Shown here piece after piece: positions 17,203 to 59,958 of a stretch of 64,000 nt of DNA. Source of the DNA: Candidatus Nomurabacteria bacterium. Lineage in GTDB: Bacteria; Patescibacteriota; Minisyncoccia; Phycocordibacterales; UBA918. The notes below the pieces were generated by a model that searched no databases, had not been told where the DNA came from, and saw only the letters and a list, made by a program, of their open reading frames with translations. Both the position numbers and the translations under genes were made by a program. The stretch's first letter is position 1. The number at the start of each line of letters is the position of its first letter. The stretch is from NCBI GenBank assembly GCA_020632095.1, contig JACKGF010000001.1, positions 6,549 through 70,548 of the forward strand, read 5' to 3'.

Positions 17203-17871
17203 ATGAAAAATCCATGGATAGTAATTGGGGTGATATTTGTAGTCTTGTTTGGAGGCGCAATTATGTATTCAAATATCTCTGCTAAGAAAAGTAATGAAGG
17301 AATTGTAATTAGTCAAAATATTAAAGGAAATCCTGAGGCGGAGGTTAAGTTGGTTGAATATAGTGATTTTCAGTGTCCAGCTTGTGCCTCCTTTCAGCCA
17401 GTTCTTGAGCAAGTAATGTCTGAGTATGGCGACAAAATTAGTTTCGAATATAAGCATTTTCCTTTGCCAATACACCCTTATGCTATGCCAGCAGCGGTAG
17501 CGGCTGAAGCGGCTGGTCAGCAGGGTAAATTCTTTGAATTCCATGATTTGTTGTTCAAAAACCAAAATACATGGGTTTCTGCTTCAGTGCCAAATTCATT
17601 ATTTATTCAGTATGCCGGTGAACTCGGCTTAGATATAGATAAGTTTAAAAGCCAGATGTCATCTACTATGCTGCGTGACCGAGTAAAGGACGATACTTCA
17701 GATGGACGAGCAGCTAACCTGACTGGCACACCAACTTTCTTTTTGAATGGCAAAAAGATGGAGTTTGACACTTTTCAAGCCTTTGTTGAGCAGATTGTAA
17801 AAGCGGTAGATCCGACTGCTCTAACGGCTTCTAGTACAGATTCAACTCCCGAGGTGAAGTTTGGTATTTAG
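17203..17871 (+). CDS. membrane-anchored DsbA-family thiol-disulfide oxidoreductase (CPAC)
   Basis: N-terminal TM helix, then a DsbA fold with the active site FQCPACASF. It is the first gene of the MATCAP-like/7TM/ATP-grasp operon, with a 23-bp gap to the next gene. Confidence 0.7.
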   Translation: MKNPWIVIGVIFVVLFGGAIMYSNISAKKSNEGIVISQNIKGNPEAEVKLVEYSDFQCPACASFQPVLEQVMSEYGDKISFEYKHFPLPIHPYAMPAAVAAEAAGQQGKFFEFHDLLFKNQNTWVSASVPNSLFIQYAGELGLDIDKFKSQMSSTMLRDRVKDDTSDGRAANLTGTPTFFLNGKKMEFDTFQAFVEQIVKAVDPTALTASSTDSTPEVKFGI

Positions 17872-17894
17872 TTAGACAAATAAGTGTATTTATT

Positions 17895-19166
17895 ATGAAT
17901 CAACCTGCTGTTTTTGATGAAGACTTGAGTTCATCCTTACGTAGGGTTGTTTCATATTTTGATGAAGACGAGTGGTTGTTGGACAATTTAAAAATTAAGT
18001 ATGAAGAAAAGGAACAGTTTTTGAACAATGAAATAGAAAACCCACAATTTAAATATAGACAACTCACACCTCATGTTGATTACACTCTAAGGCTTGATGA
18101 GTTTTACTACTGCATGAATCAATCACAGGCTCCATCGGTGGTGCTTGATCTGTATAGTCGTAAACTAGAGAAGCAGTTGTTGAGGAATGCTCTAATCGCT
18201 GCCTCGATTAGTAAGGATGATGAGTCTTTCTTTAGGGCTAGTTGTAGTCTTTATGGTAAGCCAAAGAAGAAGTATTTTTCTTACGTGGCTAAGAGATTAT
18301 TGATGCTCTGTGAGAGTAAAGGAGAGACTCATAAAGGTAGTGTTAGACGTTTGAAAAAGGTGGCTTCAAAAATTAATCATACACAAGTAGACATTGACGT
18401 GACAATGTTACCATCACCGATTACTACAGGTAGACAAATCAAATCGGTTAAAGAAGTAGAGAATATATTCAAGTCCACGCTTGAGCGCTGTGAAATTGTA
18501 GATTGGTCAGTTCAGGTGGATGAAACAAATACCAGAACTATTTTTGCTGTTAATCCACAGAAAAAGACTATATTTGTGCCGAGTGAGGAAAAGATATTTT
18601 CTAGACCTAAAGTTATGACAGATGTGGCTGTTCAGGCGTTGGCTGAACATGAAGTTGGTGTTCATGCTCGTCGCTATTTTGAGGCACAGAAGGGGCCATT
18701 AAAGATATTAGAAATTGGTCTAGATAGTTATTTGGCTGGTGAAGAAGGTTTGGCTAGTTATGTGCAACAGCAGATTGAAGGTTCTGATGAATTTTATGGT
18801 TTTGACCGATATTTGGCTGCTTGCTTGGCGGTGGGGATGGATGGTGAGGTGAGAGATTTTCGAGCGGTTTTTAGTTTGATGTTGGACTATTATACATTGG
18901 TTTTGGATGATAAAGATACAGATAAAATTGCAACTTATAATGCTGCTTGGGATGTCTGTGTAAGAATTTTTAGAGGGACTACAGGGCAGTCTGCGGGTTT
19001 AATATTTACTAAAGATATTGTCTACATGGAGGGGAATATTGGTATATGGAATTTGTTATCAGAAAAGCCACAAGTATTTGAGTCTTTATTCGTCGGGAAA
19101 TATAATCCACTTTTGTCAAGGCATGTCCAGACTTTACAAACGCTTGAAATTCTGGAACAGTGGTAG
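17895..19166 (+). CDS. DUF1704/MATCAP-like putative metallocarboxypeptidase (HExxxH + EEGLA motifs)
   Basis: AEHEVGVHARRYFEAQKGPLKILEIGLDSYLAGEEGLASYVQ carries an HExxxH motif followed by a QEGLA-like EEGLA motif. These are characteristic of the DUF1704 (TIGR02421 QEGLA-motif protein) family, which is homologous to the eukaryotic tubulin detyrosinase MATCAP. Assigned by recall of the motifs, not by search. Confidence 0.55.
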   Translation: MNQPAVFDEDLSSSLRRVVSYFDEDEWLLDNLKIKYEEKEQFLNNEIENPQFKYRQLTPHVDYTLRLDEFYYCMNQSQAPSVVLDLYSRKLEKQLLRNALIAASISKDDESFFRASCSLYGKPKKKYFSYVAKRLLMLCESKGETHKGSVRRLKKVASKINHTQVDIDVTMLPSPITTGRQIKSVKEVENIFKSTLERCEIVDWSVQVDETNTRTIFAVNPQKKTIFVPSEEKIFSRPKVMTDVAVQALAEHEVGVHARRYFEAQKGPLKILEIGLDSYLAGEEGLASYVQQQIEGSDEFYGFDRYLAACLAVGMDGEVRDFRAVFSLMLDYYTLVLDDKDTDKIATYNAAWDVCVRIFRGTTGQSAGLIFTKDIVYMEGNIGIWNLLSEKPQVFESLFVGKYNPLLSRHVQTLQTLEILEQW

Positions 19167-19167
19167 T

Positions 19168-20112
19168 ATGAAAAAAACATATTCAACAATTGTTACAATT
19201 GGTATTTTTGTGGCCTTACTGGTTTTGCCGTCATTTTCCTTTGCTCAGACGCCGGTTGGTCAGTTTGGTTTCAAAAATGATACCGCTCCAACCACGACCG
19301 AAGAACAGCCAGCATCCTCGACCGCAGTAACCGCTTCAACCACAGCTGCCAATATTATTAGCCAACAAGAAATATCGGCTCCCTCAAATGACCTTACACG
19401 GCCAGAGCAACTGCCAGAAAAAGTAGCGATTATTACTCTCTTTCAAGACCGTCCGGTCACTGAGTACAGTATTATCAATACAATGGCTTACTGGGTGCAG
19501 GAGTCAGTGCGCGATGGTGTACCAGCTAACACAATCTTTTTGATCTTACTTACACCATTGCTTGGTTTTTTGGTGAGTTTTGTACGGGTAGTGATTGGTT
19601 TGCCTACCTTGGACATGTTGGTACCAATCGCGTTAGCTTTTGCCTTTGTGGCGGTAGGAATCAACGTTGGTCTATTGGTGTTGGGAGCAATTTTGATAGC
19701 TTCATATATTTCAAAGAAATCATTGTCAAAGTTCAAGATTATGTTCTACCCGAAGCGTTCATTATCCATGGTTTTGTTAGCAATATCAGTTTTTGCAGCG
19801 CTTACTATAGGAGTCGGTCTCCATTTTGATCGTATTTTGAGTGTCTCTATTTTCCCGATTTTGGTGTTGATGTTACTTGGCGATATGATCGTGTCGGTAC
19901 AACTACACAAAAGTTCATTTGAAACTTTTGTCATTACTGGTACTACAATTGCGATTGGTTTGATTGGTTACTTTATGGCGACTAGTAATGCTATTCAAGG
20001 TACAGTAATTCTGTATCCGGAAATAATCCTGCTGGTTATTCCAGCTAATCTAGCTATTGGGCGATACTTTGGTTTGAGAATTCTCGAGTTGTTTCGCTTT
20101 AACAAAATCTAA
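19168..20112 (+). CDS. secreted-N-terminus 7-TM membrane protein (7TM_transglut-like, without the transglutaminase domain)
   Basis: ATG at 19168 lies 2 nt after the upstream stop (MKKTYSTIVTIGIFVALLVLPSFSFA signal). A Thr/Ala-rich low-complexity linker is followed by 7 predicted TM helices. Its position between a QEGLA-family gene and a RimK-related ATP-grasp gene mirrors the known 7TM-transglutaminase neighbourhood. Confidence 0.5.
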   Translation: MKKTYSTIVTIGIFVALLVLPSFSFAQTPVGQFGFKNDTAPTTTEEQPASSTAVTASTTAANIISQQEISAPSNDLTRPEQLPEKVAIITLFQDRPVTEYSIINTMAYWVQESVRDGVPANTIFLILLTPLLGFLVSFVRVVIGLPTLDMLVPIALAFAFVAVGINVGLLVLGAILIASYISKKSLSKFKIMFYPKRSLSMVLLAISVFAALTIGVGLHFDRILSVSIFPILVLMLLGDMIVSVQLHKSSFETFVITGTTIAIGLIGYFMATSNAIQGTVILYPEIILLVIPANLAIGRYFGLRILELFRFNKI

Positions 20113-20136
20113 ACTTACTAAATTAATCAATCTATT

Positions 20137-21429
20137 ATGGCAGTAAGTAATTCACTGTTAGGGATGAATGCTCGCAATTATCTCTATATTCAAAAGTTTA
20201 ATTCTAAACGAAATAAGCAAGTAGCTGATGACAAGTTGTTGACTAAAGAGCGGTTGTTGAAATTTGGTGTTCCAACTAATTCTTTTTTGGCAAAATTTTC
20301 TTCTCTACACGACGTTCGTGAATTTGACTGGAAATCACTCCCAACTGATTTTGCGATTAAACCTTCTCATGGTTATGGTGGTAGAGGAATATTTGTGGTG
20401 CGTAAGTGGGACGGAGAAAAAGGTTCGGCCGGGAAAGGTAAGCCAGTTGATATCCTTGAGTTGGAGCGAGTGATTTTTGGTGCGCTTGATGGTGAGCACT
20501 CACTTAACAATCTACCGGATACGGTTTTTATTGAAGAAAGAATTCGTTCTCATTCTTTTTTTAAAAAGTATATCCCTAAAGGGGTGCCAGATATTCGGTT
20601 AATTGTTTGTAATATGGTACCAGTGATGGCGATGATGCGTTTGCCAACGATATACTCAGAAGGAAAAGCCAACTTGCATATGGGTGCATTGGGGGTTGGA
20701 ATTGATCTTCGGACTGGAATTACTACTTCGGCGGTATTGAATAATAAACAGGTCTCAGTTATTCCAGGCGGAAAGATTAAAGTGCACGGTATAAGAATTC
20801 CAGATTGGGATAAAATTATGGAAATCGCTGTCCAAGCGCAACAATGTTCAAAACTTGGTTTTGCTGGGATTGATATTGTCTTAGATGAAAAATTAGGCCC
20901 CTTAGTATTGGAGGTTAATGCTAGACCTGGTTTAGGAATTCAGATTGCTAATCAAGCTTCGTTGCGAACCCGTCTAGAAAGAATTGCTGATTTGAAGGTC
21001 CAGACAGTTAGTCGGGGGGTTGAATTGGCGAAAAAGTTGTTTGCTGAAGAGTCACTAGAGGAAGTGAGTGAACAACAATCTACTTTGCTAGGTGTAATTG
21101 AAAAAATTACTATATTTGGAAATGATAAAAATAAGACAGTCAGAGCCAAGGTAGATACTGGTGCTTATCGAACTTCAATTGATAGTGATTTAGTAGAAGA
21201 ATTAGACTTGGACTCACATCATAAATTGATTCAGGTGCGTTCAGGTAGTGGAAGACAAAAAAGGCGTACAGTTAAATTGCGCTTTAAAATGAAAGGTAAG
21301 GAAATAGAGACAATTGCTACGTACACACCACGCGGCCACTTGCGTTTCCCTGTAATTATTGGTCGAAAGGACATGGGAGGATTTTTGGTTGATCCTAAAA
21401 GTATTCCGGAAGGGGTTTTGGTTAAGTAG
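20137..21429 (+). CDS. RimK-related ATP-grasp ligase (alpha-L-glutamate-ligase-like) fused to a C-terminal retropepsin-like aspartyl protease domain
   Basis: The N-terminus LLGMNARNYLYIQKFNSKRNKQVADDKLLTKERLLKFGVPT matches the TIGR02291 rimK-related ligase family, and ATP-grasp blocks are present (EVNARPGLG). The C-terminal 120 aa carry KVDTGAYRTSIDSDL...GRKDMGGFLVDP, a DTGA aspartyl-protease signature of the RimK-associated Zn_protease/retropepsin-like family. Confidence 0.7.
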   Translation: MAVSNSLLGMNARNYLYIQKFNSKRNKQVADDKLLTKERLLKFGVPTNSFLAKFSSLHDVREFDWKSLPTDFAIKPSHGYGGRGIFVVRKWDGEKGSAGKGKPVDILELERVIFGALDGEHSLNNLPDTVFIEERIRSHSFFKKYIPKGVPDIRLIVCNMVPVMAMMRLPTIYSEGKANLHMGALGVGIDLRTGITTSAVLNNKQVSVIPGGKIKVHGIRIPDWDKIMEIAVQAQQCSKLGFAGIDIVLDEKLGPLVLEVNARPGLGIQIANQASLRTRLERIADLKVQTVSRGVELAKKLFAEESLEEVSEQQSTLLGVIEKITIFGNDKNKTVRAKVDTGAYRTSIDSDLVEELDLDSHHKLIQVRSGSGRQKRRTVKLRFKMKGKEIETIATYTPRGHLRFPVIIGRKDMGGFLVDPKSIPEGVLVK

Positions 21430-21620
21430 TTAAGAACCTGTCCACACCTTTCCTCGGGGTCCCCAAGGGGCTAAAAACATGAGCTAAAATTGGGTAGGTA
21501 GTGGAAACAAACTTTAATTCGTTGAAGAAACATAAGTAATTTGTAGCCAAATTTTTAGACAATTACCTCGAATAAGTATTTTGTTATATTCCGTTTTGAG
21601 ATTGTGTAATAGTTGTGCAG

Positions 21621-21649
21621 AAAAGTGGCGAGCTTTGCTCGCCACTTTT
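21621..21649 (+). terminator. terminator-like hairpin downstream of the ATP-grasp gene
   Basis: AAAAGTGGCGAGC-ttt-GCTCGCCACTTTT followed by a T-rich stretch. It lies inside the N-terminal extension of the track ORF 21613. Confidence 0.5.
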
Positions 21650-21663
21650 GTTATTATAATGAC

Positions 21664-22473
21664 ATGTTTCGTACTAGGGATTTTATTCTTATTTTTGTCG
21701 CAGTAGTTTTCTTGGTGATGGCAATTGGTGCTACTTTATTAAGTCGGACTAATTTTTTTAAAGCTGGTTCGGAGGTAGTTATGATTACTGATAATGATGA
21801 TATAGAGTATGGGGCGACAGAGGTTATTCCAGAGAAAATTTCTCGAGCAGATCATTTGGCTTCGATGCGTGAGAAGATCGCTGCTGGTAAAGGAATAAGT
21901 ATATCGGCAGCAACTGAACCAATTATTGTTGAAGGTGAGAAAGAAGTAAGTGGTGAGGAAGATGAGAGTGTAGAGGAACAGGAAAAAGAAGTAGATGAAA
22001 TGCTTTGTGCTAGTTATACTAAATATAAGGGTGCATGGTCACCGTTTGGTCTCCAGACTGAAGTAACTGAAGGAGCCAGGGTTTTTTTCTTCGAGACAAT
22101 AGCTGGTTATGAGGTGACGGAGGCTACTTCGTCTGCTGATAGGGTGATGGCTCAGCCTATGAAAAAAGACGTAGTCTTGCAACTGCCAGTTAGATCCTTG
22201 CCAGTTGGTATGCCAACTTGTTTGTACTCTGATGTGGTTGGAATTGCTCAAGACGGATCTTTGATACGCAATAATGAGGTTGGTTTGTATTCAGTCTTTG
22301 GCTCCGACACTTTGATTGGTTATGCTTTCGATGGTTTTCCGATTTATGGAAAAGTTAAGGAGTCTGGTGATAAGTGTGGCGGGTCAGTAGTAAATGGTCA
22401 ATATCGTTATTCTTTGTCAGATCAGCGCGAGTTTATCTTAAATTGTTTTTCTGCCCCACCAGTTAGAATGTAA
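21664..22473 (+). CDS. hypothetical membrane-anchored acidic protein
   Basis: Start moved to ATG 21664 (MFRTRDFILIFVAVVFLV, a TM anchor) because the upstream part of the track ORF overlaps a terminator hairpin. There is an acidic E-rich linker. No known domain. Confidence 0.5.
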   Translation: MFRTRDFILIFVAVVFLVMAIGATLLSRTNFFKAGSEVVMITDNDDIEYGATEVIPEKISRADHLASMREKIAAGKGISISAATEPIIVEGEKEVSGEEDESVEEQEKEVDEMLCASYTKYKGAWSPFGLQTEVTEGARVFFFETIAGYEVTEATSSADRVMAQPMKKDVVLQLPVRSLPVGMPTCLYSDVVGIAQDGSLIRNNEVGLYSVFGSDTLIGYAFDGFPIYGKVKESGDKCGGSVVNGQYRYSLSDQREFILNCFSAPPVRM

Positions 22474-23223: not shown

Positions 23224-25089
23224 TTGGTAAACTTAATAGATATGGAAAAAATACCTGTCACTGTAAATTCGTTGTATCCAGAGCGACCTTCTAGCAATAT
23301 TGCTGTCAAAGTAGAAAATTTAGAAAAGTTCGTTTCGGGTGAAGTACCTGTCTGGGAAATACCTGAAGCGGAGCGTGCCGAAATTCTAGAAATTGAGGCT
23401 GGTTTAGCAAAAGTTCTGGAAGACGTTGTTGCTATCAAAACAAAAAGCGTCTCATTTAATTTTAACTATTTACTTTCTGTCGAAGGAGGTAATGATTTTG
23501 AAGCGGTTGTAGGAGTAAAGATTCCTCCTGAGGCGCAGGATTTTGATAGTTTAAAGAATTTTTTATATACCCAAACCAGTGTACTTAATGGGAGTAACTA
23601 TAAAAAAATATTAGACTTAGCTGGTCGATCAGTTTCTTATCGGGAAGATGAAATATACCAATCTATCACAAGCTCAATGTCCGAGGACGGAAATGTTGAT
23701 ACAAGCAATATCCCGTCAAGCGATTCTGTGAACATAAGATTGACTCCAGAACTTGATTATGGAAAGTCAACTCTCCTTAGGCAGCTGAAAGCAGATATAA
23801 AACAACAACGTGAACAACTTGCCTCCTCTGATCAGGGAGAAACTTATAAAGCATTTCTAGATGGTATTTTTGACTTATACCAAAGAAAAGTAAACGAGAT
23901 GATTGCAGAAAGTTCAACCGTATTTCTAAGTTTGGCAAAAAAAGCTGATTTTGTAGGAGAGGAATCTTTAACCGAAGACGAAAAGAAAGCTTATGATGAG
24001 GATACTATCGGAAGTAATGTGTCGGCAAACCTAAGTCGTTATGACAAATTTTTATTTGGTGCAGATACTGATTATGCCGATGACGGTTGGAAAAAACAAA
24101 TATCTGCGGAACTCATTGAGTACGCAGATGAACAGGAAAGAAAAATAATTGCAGAGAGCCAAGAAAAGAGTGCTGGCATCGCCGAGAAGGGTCTTGATGA
24201 GGATAAGTTGTTTGCTTTAACCATCGAACCAGCCGAGATAGGCAGTCTCTGTGAAGAGGCCCTAGCCCATTATGATTTATTGAGTGCTGTTCCTCCTTCT
24301 GAATATGTCGCCAACCGACCGGGGCCAGCGGAGGACAATAAATGGCAAGTAATCGTTAGTGATTCCTTCAAGTCACTTAGTGTAAACGGGACTCAAAAAG
24401 TTATAAAATGCCCAAATAAGCCTCAGTCAGTAGATAAGTTAATCAGTGTATCAATCGGTCACGAAATCGAGGGACACGCTATTCAACATAATAATCTCTC
24501 GAAAATACCACTTAAGTTATTTGAAAAGGTGGGCACAGACCGCTCATCAATTTTTGCGGAAGCTGGTGCTATGAGTAATCAAGATTATGTGACAAAAAGC
24601 GCTTTTGGTTATAGCTCTAGTCCCCATCCGAACTACATCAGGGCAATGGCGACTAAGCTTGAAGGAGGGGATTACTCAGATTGTTTGAAAGCCTTTTATG
24701 AAAGTGCCACCAAACCCCATCAAGCACAGCTAGAAGGTGGTCTAATTGATCAAGAAAAATTCAAAAAACTTTGTGAGAAAGATCTTAAGATTGCAATTAA
24801 TCGAACCGGAAGATTGTTCAGAGGTGGCATGAGTCGGTCTGACACATCAGGCTTCATAGCTGAAAGTAAGGCTACTGTTTATGTGGAGCAAACCAAGCTG
24901 GCGGCTGAGTTGAAAGAAAGAGGTTTAGAGAAGTTTTTGTATCTAACTAGAGTTAACTTTTCCTCTATCGAGTTCCTATTGCGAGCCGGATTAATAAATC
25001 TAGACGATATTCAAACCCCAGATTTTTACTGTCTGAAAATATGGGACAGAATTAAGTCAAGATACGAAAAGGAGCCAGTAGCAGATTAG
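23224..25089 (+). CDS. diverged DUF1704/MATCAP-like paralog with a 390-aa acidic N-terminal extension
   Basis: The C-terminal region GHEIEGHAIQHNNLSKIPLKLFEKVGTDRSSIFAEAGAMSNQ aligns position-for-position with HEVGVHARRYFEAQKGPLKILEIGLDSYLAGEEGLASYVQ of the 17895 gene (HExxxHA, PLK(I/L), xAxEGxA). Confidence 0.45.
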   Translation: MVNLIDMEKIPVTVNSLYPERPSSNIAVKVENLEKFVSGEVPVWEIPEAERAEILEIEAGLAKVLEDVVAIKTKSVSFNFNYLLSVEGGNDFEAVVGVKIPPEAQDFDSLKNFLYTQTSVLNGSNYKKILDLAGRSVSYREDEIYQSITSSMSEDGNVDTSNIPSSDSVNIRLTPELDYGKSTLLRQLKADIKQQREQLASSDQGETYKAFLDGIFDLYQRKVNEMIAESSTVFLSLAKKADFVGEESLTEDEKKAYDEDTIGSNVSANLSRYDKFLFGADTDYADDGWKKQISAELIEYADEQERKIIAESQEKSAGIAEKGLDEDKLFALTIEPAEIGSLCEEALAHYDLLSAVPPSEYVANRPGPAEDNKWQVIVSDSFKSLSVNGTQKVIKCPNKPQSVDKLISVSIGHEIEGHAIQHNNLSKIPLKLFEKVGTDRSSIFAEAGAMSNQDYVTKSAFGYSSSPHPNYIRAMATKLEGGDYSDCLKAFYESATKPHQAQLEGGLIDQEKFKKLCEKDLKIAINRTGRLFRGGMSRSDTSGFIAESKATVYVEQTKLAAELKERGLEKFLYLTRVNFSSIEFLLRAGLINLDDIQTPDFYCLKIWDRIKSRYEKEPVAD

Positions 25090-59559: not shown

Positions 59560-59958
59560 GTGAATATTGATACTCAGCGAGAAATTGATTTGGTTAAGTT
59601 GGCTTTTGGACAGTTTTTTGGGGTCTTTTTACCTTACATTTTATTTGTGGCGGTCGAGTTCAGTTCCGAGGATCGTGCAGCAGGGTATGATTACATGTAT
59701 TATTCCTTGGTGTTTTCAGTAATTATTTCTCTTGTTTACTTCATGGCTATTCATTTCCAGACGAAAGTCTTACTGAACGAACATGAGTTCCCTGTGTGTA
59801 AGAACGGTATACACGATGATGTTAGGCTACTGCTAAGAGGAAATCGGTGCTGGCAGTATTTAACGCCTGTCCTCGGATTTTGGTGGTTTGATAATCATCC
59901 AAAGTTATACCGGGGTGTAAAAGCAGTTCTGGCAAATAAGGGGTATCTAGAGGAGTGA
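59560..59958 (+). CDS. hypothetical membrane protein
   Basis: GTG/ATG start and 2 TM helices. Confidence 0.45.
   Translation: MNIDTQREIDLVKLAFGQFFGVFLPYILFVAVEFSSEDRAAGYDYMYYSLVFSVIISLVYFMAIHFQTKVLLNEHEFPVCKNGIHDDVRLLLRGNRCWQYLTPVLGFWWFDNHPKLYRGVKAVLANKGYLEE

What the first reader, a model, noticed from the sequence alone, without database searches (positions are those of the whole stretch)
17203..21429. Uncharacterised operon: DsbA-like, MATCAP/DUF1704-like HExxxH protein, 7-TM protein, and a RimK-related ATP-grasp ligase fused to a retropepsin-like protease
Four genes on the + strand are packed with 2-25 bp gaps (17871 to 17895, 19166 to 19168, 20112 to 20137). The second gene (17895..19166) carries HEVGVH followed about 30 aa later by EEGLA. 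This is the HExxxH plus QEGLA arrangement of the DUF1704 (TIGR02421) family, whose eukaryotic homolog MATCAP is the tubulin detyrosinase, a C-terminal carboxypeptidase. The third gene (19168..20112) is a secreted-N-terminus 7-TM protein. The fourth (20137..21429) starts like the TIGR02291 rimK-related alpha-L-glutamate-ligase-like family and ends in a DTGA retropepsin-like domain. RimK-type ligases add amino acids to protein C-termini. In eukaryotes, the homologous ATP-grasp enzymes (TTL/TTLL) and MATCAP write and erase tubulin C-terminal tails. The inference is that this operon is a bacterial C-terminal amino-acid ligation and removal module whose substrate is unknown. The fusion of the ligase to an aspartyl protease, and the loss of the usual inactive-transglutaminase domain from the 7TM partner, appear to be novel arrangements. 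The 7TM/ATP-grasp/QEGLA neighbourhood is conserved in proteobacteria but has no assigned function.
Basis: partly seen in the sequence, partly recalled or inferred. Interest (0 to 1): 0.8.

Follow-up and report, generated by a model that had tools for sequence, protein, structure and literature searches.

The report
Rlo-like ligase and peptidase operon
A small-genome bacterium (Candidatus Nomurabacteria) has a compact operon encoding a seven-helix membrane protein, an ATP-driven amino-acid ligase fused to a retrovirus-type protease, and a relative of the human tubulin-trimming enzyme MATCAP; it is a new variant of the recently described bacterial Rlo/Rim polyglutamate systems, not something without precedent.

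Summary

Ligase, peptidases and 7TM protein do form one module:
- The 7TM gene lies directly upstream of the fusion gene in 71 of 80 related loci.
- Relatives fuse 7TM to ligase.
- Many relatives fuse ligase, retropepsin-like domain and MATCAP into one ~800-aa protein.

The module is not unprecedented. The core is a Patescibacterial variant of rloABC (Pseudomonas, 2025), whose protease cuts polyglutamate. A RimB–RimK hybrid is already published, and the window's fusion is common in public data. The one proteobacterial QEGLA neighbourhood examined holds a different ATP-grasp and no 7TM gene.

Most likely function: ATP-dependent addition of acidic residues (probably glutamate) to a peptide or protein C-terminus at the membrane, trimmed by an endopeptidase and a carboxypeptidase. 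The substrate is unknown.

New here: the ligase–MATCAP fusions, loss of the retropepsin active site in those fusions, and -EE tails on their 7TM partners.

The parts
17203..17871 (+). Gene 1: membrane-anchored DsbA-like thiol-disulfide oxidoreductase (CPAC at aa 58-61, 17374-17385). A peripheral or uncertain member of the module.
   Evidence: Pfam Thioredoxin_4 1.1e-28 and DSBA 1e-17. One N-terminal hydrophobic helix, aa 5-23. CPAC motif. A DsbA-like gene lies at position -1 or -2 in 9 of about 88 loci, carrying three different CxxC variants.
17895..19166 (+). Gene 2: MATCAP/DUF1704-family metallopeptidase, predicted cytoplasmic carboxypeptidase. HEVGVH at 18648-18665; EEGLA at 18741-18755.
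19168..20112 (+). Gene 3: RloB-like multi-pass (7TM_transglut) membrane protein without a transglutaminase domain. Signal-peptide-like N-terminus (aa 1-26), S/T/A/P-rich ectodomain (aa 27-119), membrane core (aa 120-314).
   Evidence: Pfam 7TM_transglut 6.6e-20. RloB NCBIfam model matched only at 313-503 of 508. Hydropathy. AF2 pLDDT 75.9, membrane core 80-93, aa 26-56 disordered. Many invariant charged or polar residues in the core. A 7TM gene lies directly upstream of the ligase fusion in 71 of 80 loci. It is fused to the N-terminus of the ligase in P0330, P0332 and P0361.
20137..21429 (+). Gene 4: RloC-like ATP-grasp ligase (aa 13-283, 20173-20985; E259-x-N261 at 20911-20919) fused to a C-terminal retropepsin-like aspartic protease (aa ~326-430, 21112-21426; DTGA at 21154-21165; GRKD at aa 409-412, 21361-21372).
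   Evidence: ATPgrasp_ST 4.4e-65, RimK 4.5e-8, Asp_protease_2 2.2e-7. TIGR02291 1.9e-75, RloA3 6.7e-8. K75, R154, D246, E259 and N261 are invariant. PDB hits: RimK 5zct/4iwx, and PF05618 structures 2pma/9g59 aligning AKxDTGA and the GR motif. The protease domain has net charge +9, median +12 in 116 homologues. 117 of 117 close homologues keep D[TS]G[AS].
21621..21649 (+). Terminator-like hairpin (13-bp perfect stem, A-run before and T-rich tail after) in the 234-bp gap after gene 4. Probable 3' end of the transcription unit.
   Evidence: The next gene starts at ATG 21664 according to public gene calls, not at the TTG 21613 given by the ORF list. The scan found no more terminator-like sites than shuffled sequence gives overall, so this rests on the quality and position of this one hairpin.

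Best explanation
This is a Patescibacterial variant of the Rlo/Rim class of ligase-plus-peptidase systems, working at the cytoplasmic face of the membrane.

Proposed mechanism:
1. The ATP-grasp domain of gene 4 uses ATP to add amino acids, most likely L-glutamate or another acidic residue, one after another. The acceptor is either the C-terminus of a peptide or protein, or free amino acid giving a poly-alpha-amino-acid chain.
2. The retropepsin domain fused to the ligase, acting as a dimer, cuts such acidic chains internally.
3. The MATCAP-like metallopeptidase (gene 2) trims them from the C-terminal end.
4. The 7TM protein (gene 3) holds the ligase at the membrane. It either passes the product outward or couples ligase activity to the state of the cell envelope.

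The physiological role is probably envelope or osmotic homeostasis, as for rloABC.

Shown here: family membership, intact catalytic motifs, the MATCAP fold, physical linkage through fusions, and conserved gene order.

Inferred: glutamate as the residue added, the division of labour between endo- and exo-peptidase, the role of the 7TM protein, and the physiology.
For: Family and active sites.

Module integrity:
- The 7TM gene lies immediately upstream on the same strand in 71 of 80 loci whose ligase is only 43-80% identical.
- MATCAP is in the locus in at least 17 of 82 loci, in different positions.
- Pairwise fusions link everything: 7TM+ligase (P0330, P0332), transglutaminase+7TM+ligase (P0361), ligase+retropepsin+MATCAP (P0248, P0250, L004-L007).
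- 43 of the best 150 clusters at 50% identity carry the MATCAP motif; 41 of them are 741-830 aa.

Shared substrate: the retropepsin D[TS]G[AS] motif is kept in 72 of 74 two-domain fusions but in 0 of 7 three-domain fusions in the loci, and in only 3 of 42 three-domain representatives, while 41 of 42 of those keep HExxxH..EG. Loss of one peptidase site when the other is attached suggests overlapping jobs.

Acidic substrate:
- RloA and RimB cleave polyglutamate, and loss of RloB or RloC suppresses loss of RloA1-3 (PMC12239564; PMC11957791).
- MATCAP/TMCP enzymes remove C-terminal Tyr/Glu and shorten polyglutamate chains, using HExxxH plus an EEG ligand (PMC10499314).
- The window's protease domain is strongly basic.

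Recurrence of the pairing: a proteobacterial MATCAP-family gene lies next to a GshB-type ATP-grasp. The QEGLA gene, the GshB gene numbered next to it, and RimK are all induced at low salinity in Photobacterium.
Against: - No biochemical data exist for any ATPgrasp_ST/TIGR02291 ligase, RloC included, so the residue added and the acceptor are unknown.
- Pfam's name for the ligase family ('sugar-transfer associated') points to glycopolymer modification.
- Gene 4 scores below the TIGR02291, RimK and RloA cut-offs, so specificity cannot be transferred.
- The published RimBK hybrid showed no S6 glutamylation.
- No polyGlu or clearly acidic-tailed candidate substrate is encoded in the window, and rpsF is not in the window.
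- Both peptidases are predicted cytoplasmic here, whereas RloA is secreted, so the logic may differ from Rlo.
- Many related loci carry one to three extra ATP-grasp genes that the window lacks.
Confidence: 0.5

Rival explanations
1. Cell-envelope glycopolymer or peptidoglycan-precursor modification. The ATP-grasp amide-links amino acids to a sugar acid or stem peptide on a lipid carrier. The 7TM protein is the flippase or membrane acceptor. The peptidases edit or recycle the appended peptide.
For: - Pfam names PF14397 'sugar-transfer associated ATP-grasp'.
- Relatives fuse the ligase-protease to a YdjC-like carbohydrate deacetylase (P0244).
- L008 has a GT4 glycosyltransferase and a GNAT between the ligase and MATCAP.
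- A class-A PBP lies 2-5 genes downstream in 19 loci.
- rlo mutants show cell-shape and beta-lactam phenotypes.
- The 7TM core has many invariant charged residues, as expected for a transporter or enzyme rather than a simple anchor.
Against: - The window operon has no glycosyltransferase.
- The PBP and yebC/ruvC neighbours co-occur in the same sub-lineages, so they may be inherited synteny.
- Retropepsin and MATCAP homologues with known activity act on polypeptide tails.
Confidence: 0.2
2. Reversible C-terminal tagging of one specific protein, in the way RimK tags ribosomal protein S6. In one clade the target could be the cytoplasmic tail of the 7TM partner itself.
For: - RimK/RimB precedent.
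- In all 4 three-domain-fusion loci that have a 7TM gene, the 7TM protein ends in -EE; 0 of 71 others do.
- Most close homologues of gene 3 end in D or E.
- The C-terminus is predicted cytoplasmic, because relatives carry the ligase fused there.
Against: - The window's gene 3 ends in -NKI.
- Where 7TM and ligase are fused there is no free tail.
- Only four loci, with no control for shared ancestry.
- Gene 4 is not a RimK-family member by score.
Confidence: 0.2
3. Synthesis and turnover of a free small peptide or poly-amino-acid metabolite in the cytoplasm (osmolyte, storage compound or signal). The 7TM protein acts only as an anchor or regulator.
For: - RimK also makes free poly-alpha-glutamate, and RimB stimulates this.
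- Lormand et al. consider free polyglutamate as the RloA substrate.
- Many loci hold 2-4 ATP-grasp genes, suggesting stepwise assembly.
Against: The near-obligatory 7TM partner, and its fusions to the ligase, argue for a membrane-linked step. The window has a single ligase.
Confidence: 0.08
4. The four genes are merely neighbours in a dense genome, with no shared function.
For: Close relatives are syntenic across the whole region, unrelated flanking genes included. The promoter/terminator scan is not enriched over shuffles.
Against: Domain fusions, and conserved adjacency at 43-60% identity in otherwise different contexts. For gene 1 alone this reading remains plausible.
Confidence: 0.02

Closest known systems
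rloABC of Pseudomonas aeruginosa (Lormand et al., mBio 2025, PMC12239564)
   Same: The same three protein families: a PF14402 7TM protein (RloB), a TIGR02291/ATPgrasp_ST ligase (RloC) and a PF05618-type retropepsin (RloA). The 7TM gene is adjacent to the ligase gene. Genetic data show that the three act in one process, and RloA cuts runs of at least 8 Glu.
   Different: - Here the retropepsin is fused to the C-terminus of the ligase and has no signal peptide, so it is cytoplasmic; RloA is secreted.
- The 7TM protein lacks the periplasmic inactive transglutaminase domain.
- A MATCAP-family peptidase is added.
- All scores fall below the Rlo equivalog cut-offs.
- The host is a Patescibacterium, not a proteobacterium.
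RimK/RimB and the RimBK hybrid (Little et al., JBC 2025, PMC11957791)
   Same: A cytoplasmic ATP-grasp ligase working with a cytoplasmic retropepsin-like endopeptidase that cuts polyGlu tails. A ligase-protease hybrid protein exists and is proteolytically active.
   Different: - In RimBK the protease is N-terminal to a true RimK. Here it is C-terminal to an RloC-type ATP-grasp (TIGR00768 51 bits against a cut-off of 143).
- The Rim system has no 7TM partner and no MATCAP.
Eukaryotic tubulin tail enzymes: TTL/TTLL ligases with MATCAP/TMCP carboxypeptidases (PMC10499314)
   Different: - In eukaryotes the two are separate, unlinked genes acting on tubulin. Here they are operon partners, or one polypeptide in relatives.
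- The ligase is not a TTL-family member; the only match is a 42-aa local ATP-grasp motif.
- There is no tubulin, and the substrate is unknown.
Proteobacterial QEGLA (TIGR02421) clusters
   Same: A MATCAP-family protein adjacent to an ATP-grasp ligase (Shinella plasmid; V. vulnificus COG3930 next to COG0189). Induced at low salinity in Photobacterium.
   Different: The partner ligase is GshB-type (PF02955/PF02951). An FGase is present. No 7TM protein and no retropepsin. Gene 2 scores 95 bits against the TIGR02421 cut-off of 339.

Membership tests
Pfam MATCAP / DUF1704 (PF08014) | Profile score above the gathering threshold | tested here: met
   87.3 bits against 27, E 1.3e-24
Pfam MATCAP / DUF1704 (PF08014) | HExxxH motif plus a downstream EEG metal-ligand motif | tested here: met
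   HEVGVH 252-257 and EEGLA 283-287. Invariant in the family. The motif definition comes from PMC10499314.
Pfam MATCAP / DUF1704 (PF08014) | MATCAP three-dimensional fold | tested here: met
Pfam MATCAP / DUF1704 (PF08014) | Metal-dependent carboxypeptidase activity on acidic C-terminal tails | not testable with these tools
   Needs an enzyme assay
NCBIfam TIGR02421 (QEGLA equivalog) | Score above the curated cut-off | tested here: not met
   94.8 bits against 338.65
rloABC system | RloC: TIGR02291-type ATP-grasp | tested here: inconclusive
   TIGR02291 is the best NCBIfam hit (253.8 bits, E 1.9e-75) but falls below the cut-off of 314.2. Pfam ATPgrasp_ST is met at 220 bits.
rloABC system | RloB: inactive transglutaminase domain fused to 7 TM helices | tested here: not met
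   Only the 7TM part matches (profile 313-503 of 508; 51 bits against 900). No Transglut_core hit.
rloABC system | RloA: separate, secreted retropepsin with a signal peptide and a catalytic DTG | tested here: not met
   DTGA is present, but the domain is fused to the cytoplasmic ligase with no signal peptide or TM segment. RloA3 32 bits against 210.
rloABC system | 7TM gene and ATP-grasp gene adjacent and functionally linked | tested here: met
   Adjacent in the window. 71 of 80 related loci show the same. 7TM-ligase fusions exist.
RimK family / RimBK hybrid | RimK-family ligase (TIGR00768 / PRK10446) score | tested here: not met
   51.2 bits against 143.4, and 25.5 against 331. The PDB RimK match covers only aa 227-269.
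RimK family / RimBK hybrid | RimB domain N-terminal to the ligase | tested here: not met
   The domain order is reversed here: ligase aa 13-283, protease aa ~326-430 (RimBK order).
Retropepsin-like aspartic peptidases (clan AA; PF13650 / PF05618) | Profile match, D-T/S-G-A catalytic motif and C-terminal G-R-D/N-type motif | tested here: met
   Asp_protease_2 31.9 bits against 24.3; PF05618 25.2 against 27, just below threshold. DTGA 340-343 and GRKD 409-412. Aligns to 2pma and 9g59.
ATP-grasp superfamily | Conserved Lys and the D...E-x-N Mg-ATP residues | tested here: met
   K75, D246, E259 and N261 are invariant in alignments A1 and A2 and present in gene 4.
TTL/TTLL family (PF03133) | Full-length profile match | tested here: inconclusive
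   22.7 bits against 20.1, but over aa 238-279 only, which is a generic ATP-grasp motif. This is not evidence of TTL membership.
DsbA-like thioredoxin fold | Profile match and CxxC motif | tested here: met
   Thioredoxin_4 100.9 bits, DSBA 65 bits. CPAC at aa 58-61.
Known anti-phage defence systems (PADLOC) | Any significant model hit | tested here: not met
   Only PDC-M08B at E 4e-4, 18.5 bits, on the retropepsin region.

The most novel reading that the evidence does not exclude
In a clade of Patescibacteria (Peribacteria/Gracilibacteria-like), an ATP-grasp ligase and a MATCAP-fold carboxypeptidase on one polypeptide add and remove residues on the Glu-Glu C-terminal tail of their own 7TM membrane partner. 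This would be a prokaryotic writer/eraser cycle formally equivalent to tubulin tail tyrosination/glutamylation and its removal, and possibly ancestral to the eukaryotic pairing. The window's operon would be the unfused relative of that machine, acting on a different or still unknown tail.
Probability: 0.12. Interest if true: 0.85.

Novelty: new variant of a known kind. Interest (0 to 1): 0.55.

Why it matters
Rlo-type systems affect osmotic tolerance, antibiotic sensitivity, biofilm formation and cell shape in Pseudomonas, yet the chemistry of RloB and RloC is unknown. The Patescibacterial variants give natural 'Rosetta stone' fusions: 7TM–ligase, ligase–retropepsin, and ligase–retropepsin–MATCAP. 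These fusions establish three things:
- The ligase works at the cytoplasmic face of the 7TM protein.
- A MATCAP-fold carboxypeptidase is a true partner of this ligase class.
- The two peptidases appear to overlap in function.

This offers compact, soluble constructs for finding the product of the ligase. It also shows that the pairing of an ATP-grasp tail-ligase with a MATCAP-type tail-trimmer, known from the eukaryotic tubulin code, exists as a physically linked unit in bacteria. For organisms with genomes of about 1 Mb, keeping this module suggests a significant role in the cell envelope.

Tried and rejected
3. A single-sequence PDB search with gene 2 was only marginal (E 0.14).
4. PADLOC gave no significant defence-system match.
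5. The substrate search inside the window found no polyGlu or acidic-run ORFs. One unannotated 132-aa ORF ends in -LEE and has no family. No rpsF is present.
6. The 2009 Iyer/Aravind amidoligase paper, which defined several of these Pfam families, is not held, so I could not check whether it already noted the DUF1704 link.
A 10-sequence alignment worked.
8. My regular expression for the ExN motif was too strict and misclassified many representatives. I rely on the alignment-based count and the locus-based count instead.
9. The promoter/terminator scan was not enriched over shuffles. Only the one strong hairpin is used.
10. yebC/ruvC, ribosomal-protein and PBP neighbours were considered as functional partners. 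Most were set aside as lineage synteny. The PBP is kept only as weak support for the envelope rival.

Full report
**1. The observation**

The gaps between them are 23, 1 and 24 bp. Two public assemblies carry identical proteins and call the same four genes of 222, 423, 314 and 430 aa. NCBI names them as Candidatus Nomurabacteria proteins on a 997-kb contig.

The motifs are real:
- HEVGVH at aa 252-257 and EEGLA at aa 283-287 in gene 2
- DTGA at aa 340-343 in gene 4
- CPAC at aa 58-61 in gene 1

A perfect 13-bp hairpin with a T-rich tail lies at 21621-21649. This is inside the 234-bp gap between gene 4 and the true ATG (21664) of the next gene, so it gives the unit a plausible 3' end.

**2. Family assignments**

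Pfam places all four proteins above gathering thresholds:

| Gene | Pfam family | E-value |
|---|---|---|
| 1 | Thioredoxin_4 / DSBA | 1.1e-28 |
| 2 | MATCAP PF08014 | 1.3e-24 |
| 3 | 7TM_transglut PF14402 | 6.6e-20 |
| 4 | ATPgrasp_ST PF14397 | 4.4e-65 |
| 4 | Asp_protease_2 | 2.2e-7 |

NCBIfam's best hits are TIGR02421 (QEGLA), RloB, TIGR02291, and RloA3/RloA2. All score well below the curated cut-offs, and RloB is matched only over its 7TM part. These proteins are therefore relatives of those named families, not members.

The ATP-grasp residues K75, R154, D246, E259 and N261 are invariant across diverse relatives.

For gene 2:
- H252, E253, H257 and E283-E284-G285 are invariant.
- The family profile hits only human MATCAP in the PDB, E 3.8e-7.
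- Foldseek missed MATCAP.

The retropepsin domain aligns to the PF05618 structures 2pma and 9g59 across the AKxDTGA and GR motifs. It is strongly basic: +9 over 105 aa, with a median of +12 in 116 homologues.

**3. There is a known system**

NCBIfam's Rlo names led to Lormand et al. 2025 (PMC12239564). In P. aeruginosa:
- RloA is a secreted retropepsin that cuts runs of at least eight glutamates.
- RloB is an inactive transglutaminase fused to a 7TM domain.
- RloC is a cytoplasmic ATP-grasp protein.
- Deleting rloB or rloC suppresses the hypo-osmotic lethality of the triple rloA mutant.
- The chemistry of RloB and RloC is unknown.

The related RimK/RimB pair polyglutamylates ribosomal protein S6 and trims the tail. 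A natural RimB-RimK hybrid, with the protease at the N-terminus, is proteolytically active (PMC11957791). MATCAP/TMCP enzymes are HExxxH/EEG metallocarboxypeptidases that remove C-terminal Tyr/Glu and shorten polyglutamate chains (PMC10499314).

**4. Is the module real beyond close relatives?**

The two-domain ligase-retropepsin protein is common. More than 120 full-length clusters at 58-87% identity carry the same domains. An exhaustive search found 1,938 representative clusters at E <= 1e-3.

Among the best 150 representatives, the length classes are:
- 47 of 346-520 aa (mostly the two-domain form)
- 42 of 741-830 aa, of which 41 carry HExxxH..EG (43 of the 150 carry the motif in all)
- 42 of 345 aa or less
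- several with the ligase at the C-terminus

Pfam confirms these architectures:
- ligase + RimB-like + MATCAP: P0248, P0250, L004, L006
- 7TM + ligase: P0330, P0332
- transglutaminase + 7TM + ligase: P0361
- ligase + protease + YdjC: P0244
- ligase + protease + a second ATP-grasp: P0264

A metagenome scan gave 80 further loci whose ligase is 43-80% identical. Of 82 loci with a fusion ORF:
- 71 of the 80 with an upstream ORF have the 7TM gene immediately upstream on the same strand.
- MATCAP is fused in 7 and a separate gene in 10. This is a lower bound, because many contigs are short.

In L008 the order is 7TM, ligase-protease, a second ATP-grasp, a glycosyltransferase, a GNAT and then MATCAP. 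The trio therefore persists while order and content change.

Other recurrent neighbours:
- extra RimK-like ATP-grasp genes (54 loci) and a ~500-aa ATP-grasp (10 loci)
- a class-A PBP (19 loci)
- yebC (with ruvC in L008, and ruvB in 7 loci) and ribosomal-protein genes, which I read as lineage synteny
- a DsbA-like gene at position -1 or -2 in 9 loci, with three CxxC variants

Gene 1 is thus a weak, unresolved associate. Gene 3 contains no cysteine, so it is not an obvious DsbA client.

**5. Active-site pattern**

The retropepsin D[TS]G[AS] motif is kept as follows:

| Set | Motif kept |
|---|---|
| Close homologues | 117 of 117 |
| Two-domain fusions in the loci | 72 of 74 |
| Three-domain fusions in the loci | 0 of 7 |
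| Three-domain representatives | 3 of 42 |

The MATCAP motifs in the three-domain proteins are almost always intact. The simplest reading, which is inference, is that both peptidases act on the same product. When MATCAP is attached in cis, the retropepsin would then survive only as a binding or dimerisation module. The window's organism keeps both sites intact.

**6. Mechanism**

I propose that the ligase adds acidic residues, most likely glutamate, to a C-terminus or into a free chain at the inner face of the 7TM protein. The fused retropepsin dimer cleaves such chains internally. The MATCAP-like enzyme trims them from the end.

Cytoplasmic location of both peptidases follows from the absence of signal or TM segments. 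A cytoplasmic C-terminus for the 7TM protein follows from the relatives that carry the ligase fused there.

The physiological role is probably related to the envelope or to osmotic stress, by analogy with rlo. The QEGLA gene, the GshB gene numbered next to it, and RimK are all induced at low salinity in Photobacterium. This role is inferred, not shown.

**7.

- The system is not unassigned, because rloABC has been described.
- The fusion is neither rare nor conceptually new, because RimBK has been described. The domain order and the ligase clade do differ.
- Absence of the transglutaminase domain is typical of the lineage. 7TM partners are mostly 210-330 aa, and the ~500-aa forms include one confirmed PKD domain (L004).
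- The proteobacterial QEGLA neighbourhood I could inspect contains an FGase and a GshB-type ATP-grasp, with no 7TM gene.

MATCAP-family peptidases do pair with ATP-grasp ligases in more than one phylum, but with different ligase clades. The combination with the Rlo-type core appears to be characteristic of Patescibacteria in the data I saw.

**8. Leads**

- In all four three-domain-fusion loci that have a 7TM gene, that protein ends in Glu-Glu (…DDSEE, …HIQEE, …RHIEE, …KHAEE). None of 71 other 7TM ORFs does, although most close homologues of gene 3 end in D or E. Gene 3 itself ends in -NKI. Since RimK and TTL act on -EE tails and MATCAP acts on -EEY/-EE tails, the 7TM tail could be the substrate in that clade. 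This rests on four loci with no control for shared ancestry.
- The 621-aa ORF at 23224-25089 has no Pfam hit but is a divergent MATCAP-like protein: hhalign 92.6%, E 4.7e-7, with HExxxH, EEG, RxFRG and VYxE aligned.

**9. Verdict**

This is a real, conserved module and a new variant of a known kind (Rlo/Rim-type ligase-peptidase systems). Its chemistry is unknown. The most useful outcome of this work is the network of fusions, above all ligase-MATCAP.

Noticed in passing
window 23224-25089 (+); public gene calls start at ATG 23242 (615 aa): This 621-aa ORF has no Pfam or NCBIfam hit but is a very divergent MATCAP/DUF1704-like protein. hhalign against the gene 2 family gives 92.6% probability, E 4.7e-7, over 184 columns. 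It aligns HEIEGH (24460-24477), AEAG (in place of EEG), RLFRGG and VYVE. It was not found downstream in relatives L002/L003.
   Followed up: partly
L004:65-1648, L084:5440-6948, L085:5433-6980, L088:1173-2678: The long 7TM partners of the ligase-retropepsin-MATCAP fusions all end in Glu-Glu (DDSEE, HIQEE, RHIEE, KHAEE); 0 of 71 other 7TM ORFs do. They are possible acceptor tails for the ligase/MATCAP pair. The window's gene 3 ends in -NKI.
   Followed up: partly
L004-L007, L084, L085, L088; representatives P0248-P0341: The retropepsin catalytic D[TS]G[AS] motif is lost in nearly all proteins that also carry a MATCAP domain (0 of 7 loci; 3 of 42 representatives keep it). It is kept in 72 of 74 two-domain fusions.
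   Followed up: yes
L013-L090, positions +1 to +3 after the fusion gene: A family of ~308-aa proteins (the annotated representative is RimK-like; 49 of its 92 ORFs hit my ligase HMM) follows the fusion gene in 54 loci, and a ~500-aa ATP-grasp_3 protein follows it in 10 loci. The window operon has none. This suggests multi-step ligation in many relatives.
   Followed up: partly
L008, L029, L039, L045, L053, L055, L060, L072-L075, L079, L080 and others: A class-A penicillin-binding protein (Transgly + Transpeptidase + Big_7) lies 2-5 genes downstream of the module in 19 loci. In 23 loci yebC lies upstream (followed by ruvC in L008). This may be lineage synteny or a link to peptidoglycan.
   Followed up: partly
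window 21613-21664: The mechanical ORF list starts the YHYH-like gene at TTG 21613, but public gene calls and the 21621-21649 hairpin place the true start at ATG 21664.
   Followed up: yes
window 59560-59958 (+): A 132-aa ORF with no Pfam family ends in ...GYLEE. It is the only ORF in the window with a Glu-Glu C-terminus, and it is not ribosomal protein S6 by BLAST.
   Followed up: partly
L005-L007 and other loci classed as code 25: In L005-L007 the ligase frame contains in-frame TGA codons (5, 3 and 17), so these must be read with genetic code 25 (Gracilibacteria-type). In those three loci the upstream gene is FtsX-like and no 7TM gene was seen nearby. Eighteen metagenome loci were also classed as code 25, but only by an ORF-length heuristic.
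   Followed up: partly
L002, L003, L011, L022, L034, L042, L046, L061, L082: A DsbA-like gene (CPSC, CPAC, CPHC or CPFC) sits directly upstream of the 7TM or MATCAP gene in 9 loci with differing CxxC motifs. The association with the module is weak but recurrent and remains unexplained.
   Followed up: partly
window 1-64000: GC skew is positive in every 2-kb window, so cumulative skew rises steadily. The whole window appears to lie on one replichore.
   Followed up: no
L093 (Shinella sp. HZN7 plasmid pShin-02, NZ_CP015738.1 288832-292576): A proteobacterial three-gene cluster: FGase (PF05013), a 617-aa MATCAP-family 'QEGLA' protein with an unassigned 266-aa N-terminal extension, and a GshB-type ATP-grasp. 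This is a different ligase partner for the same peptidase family.
   Followed up: partly
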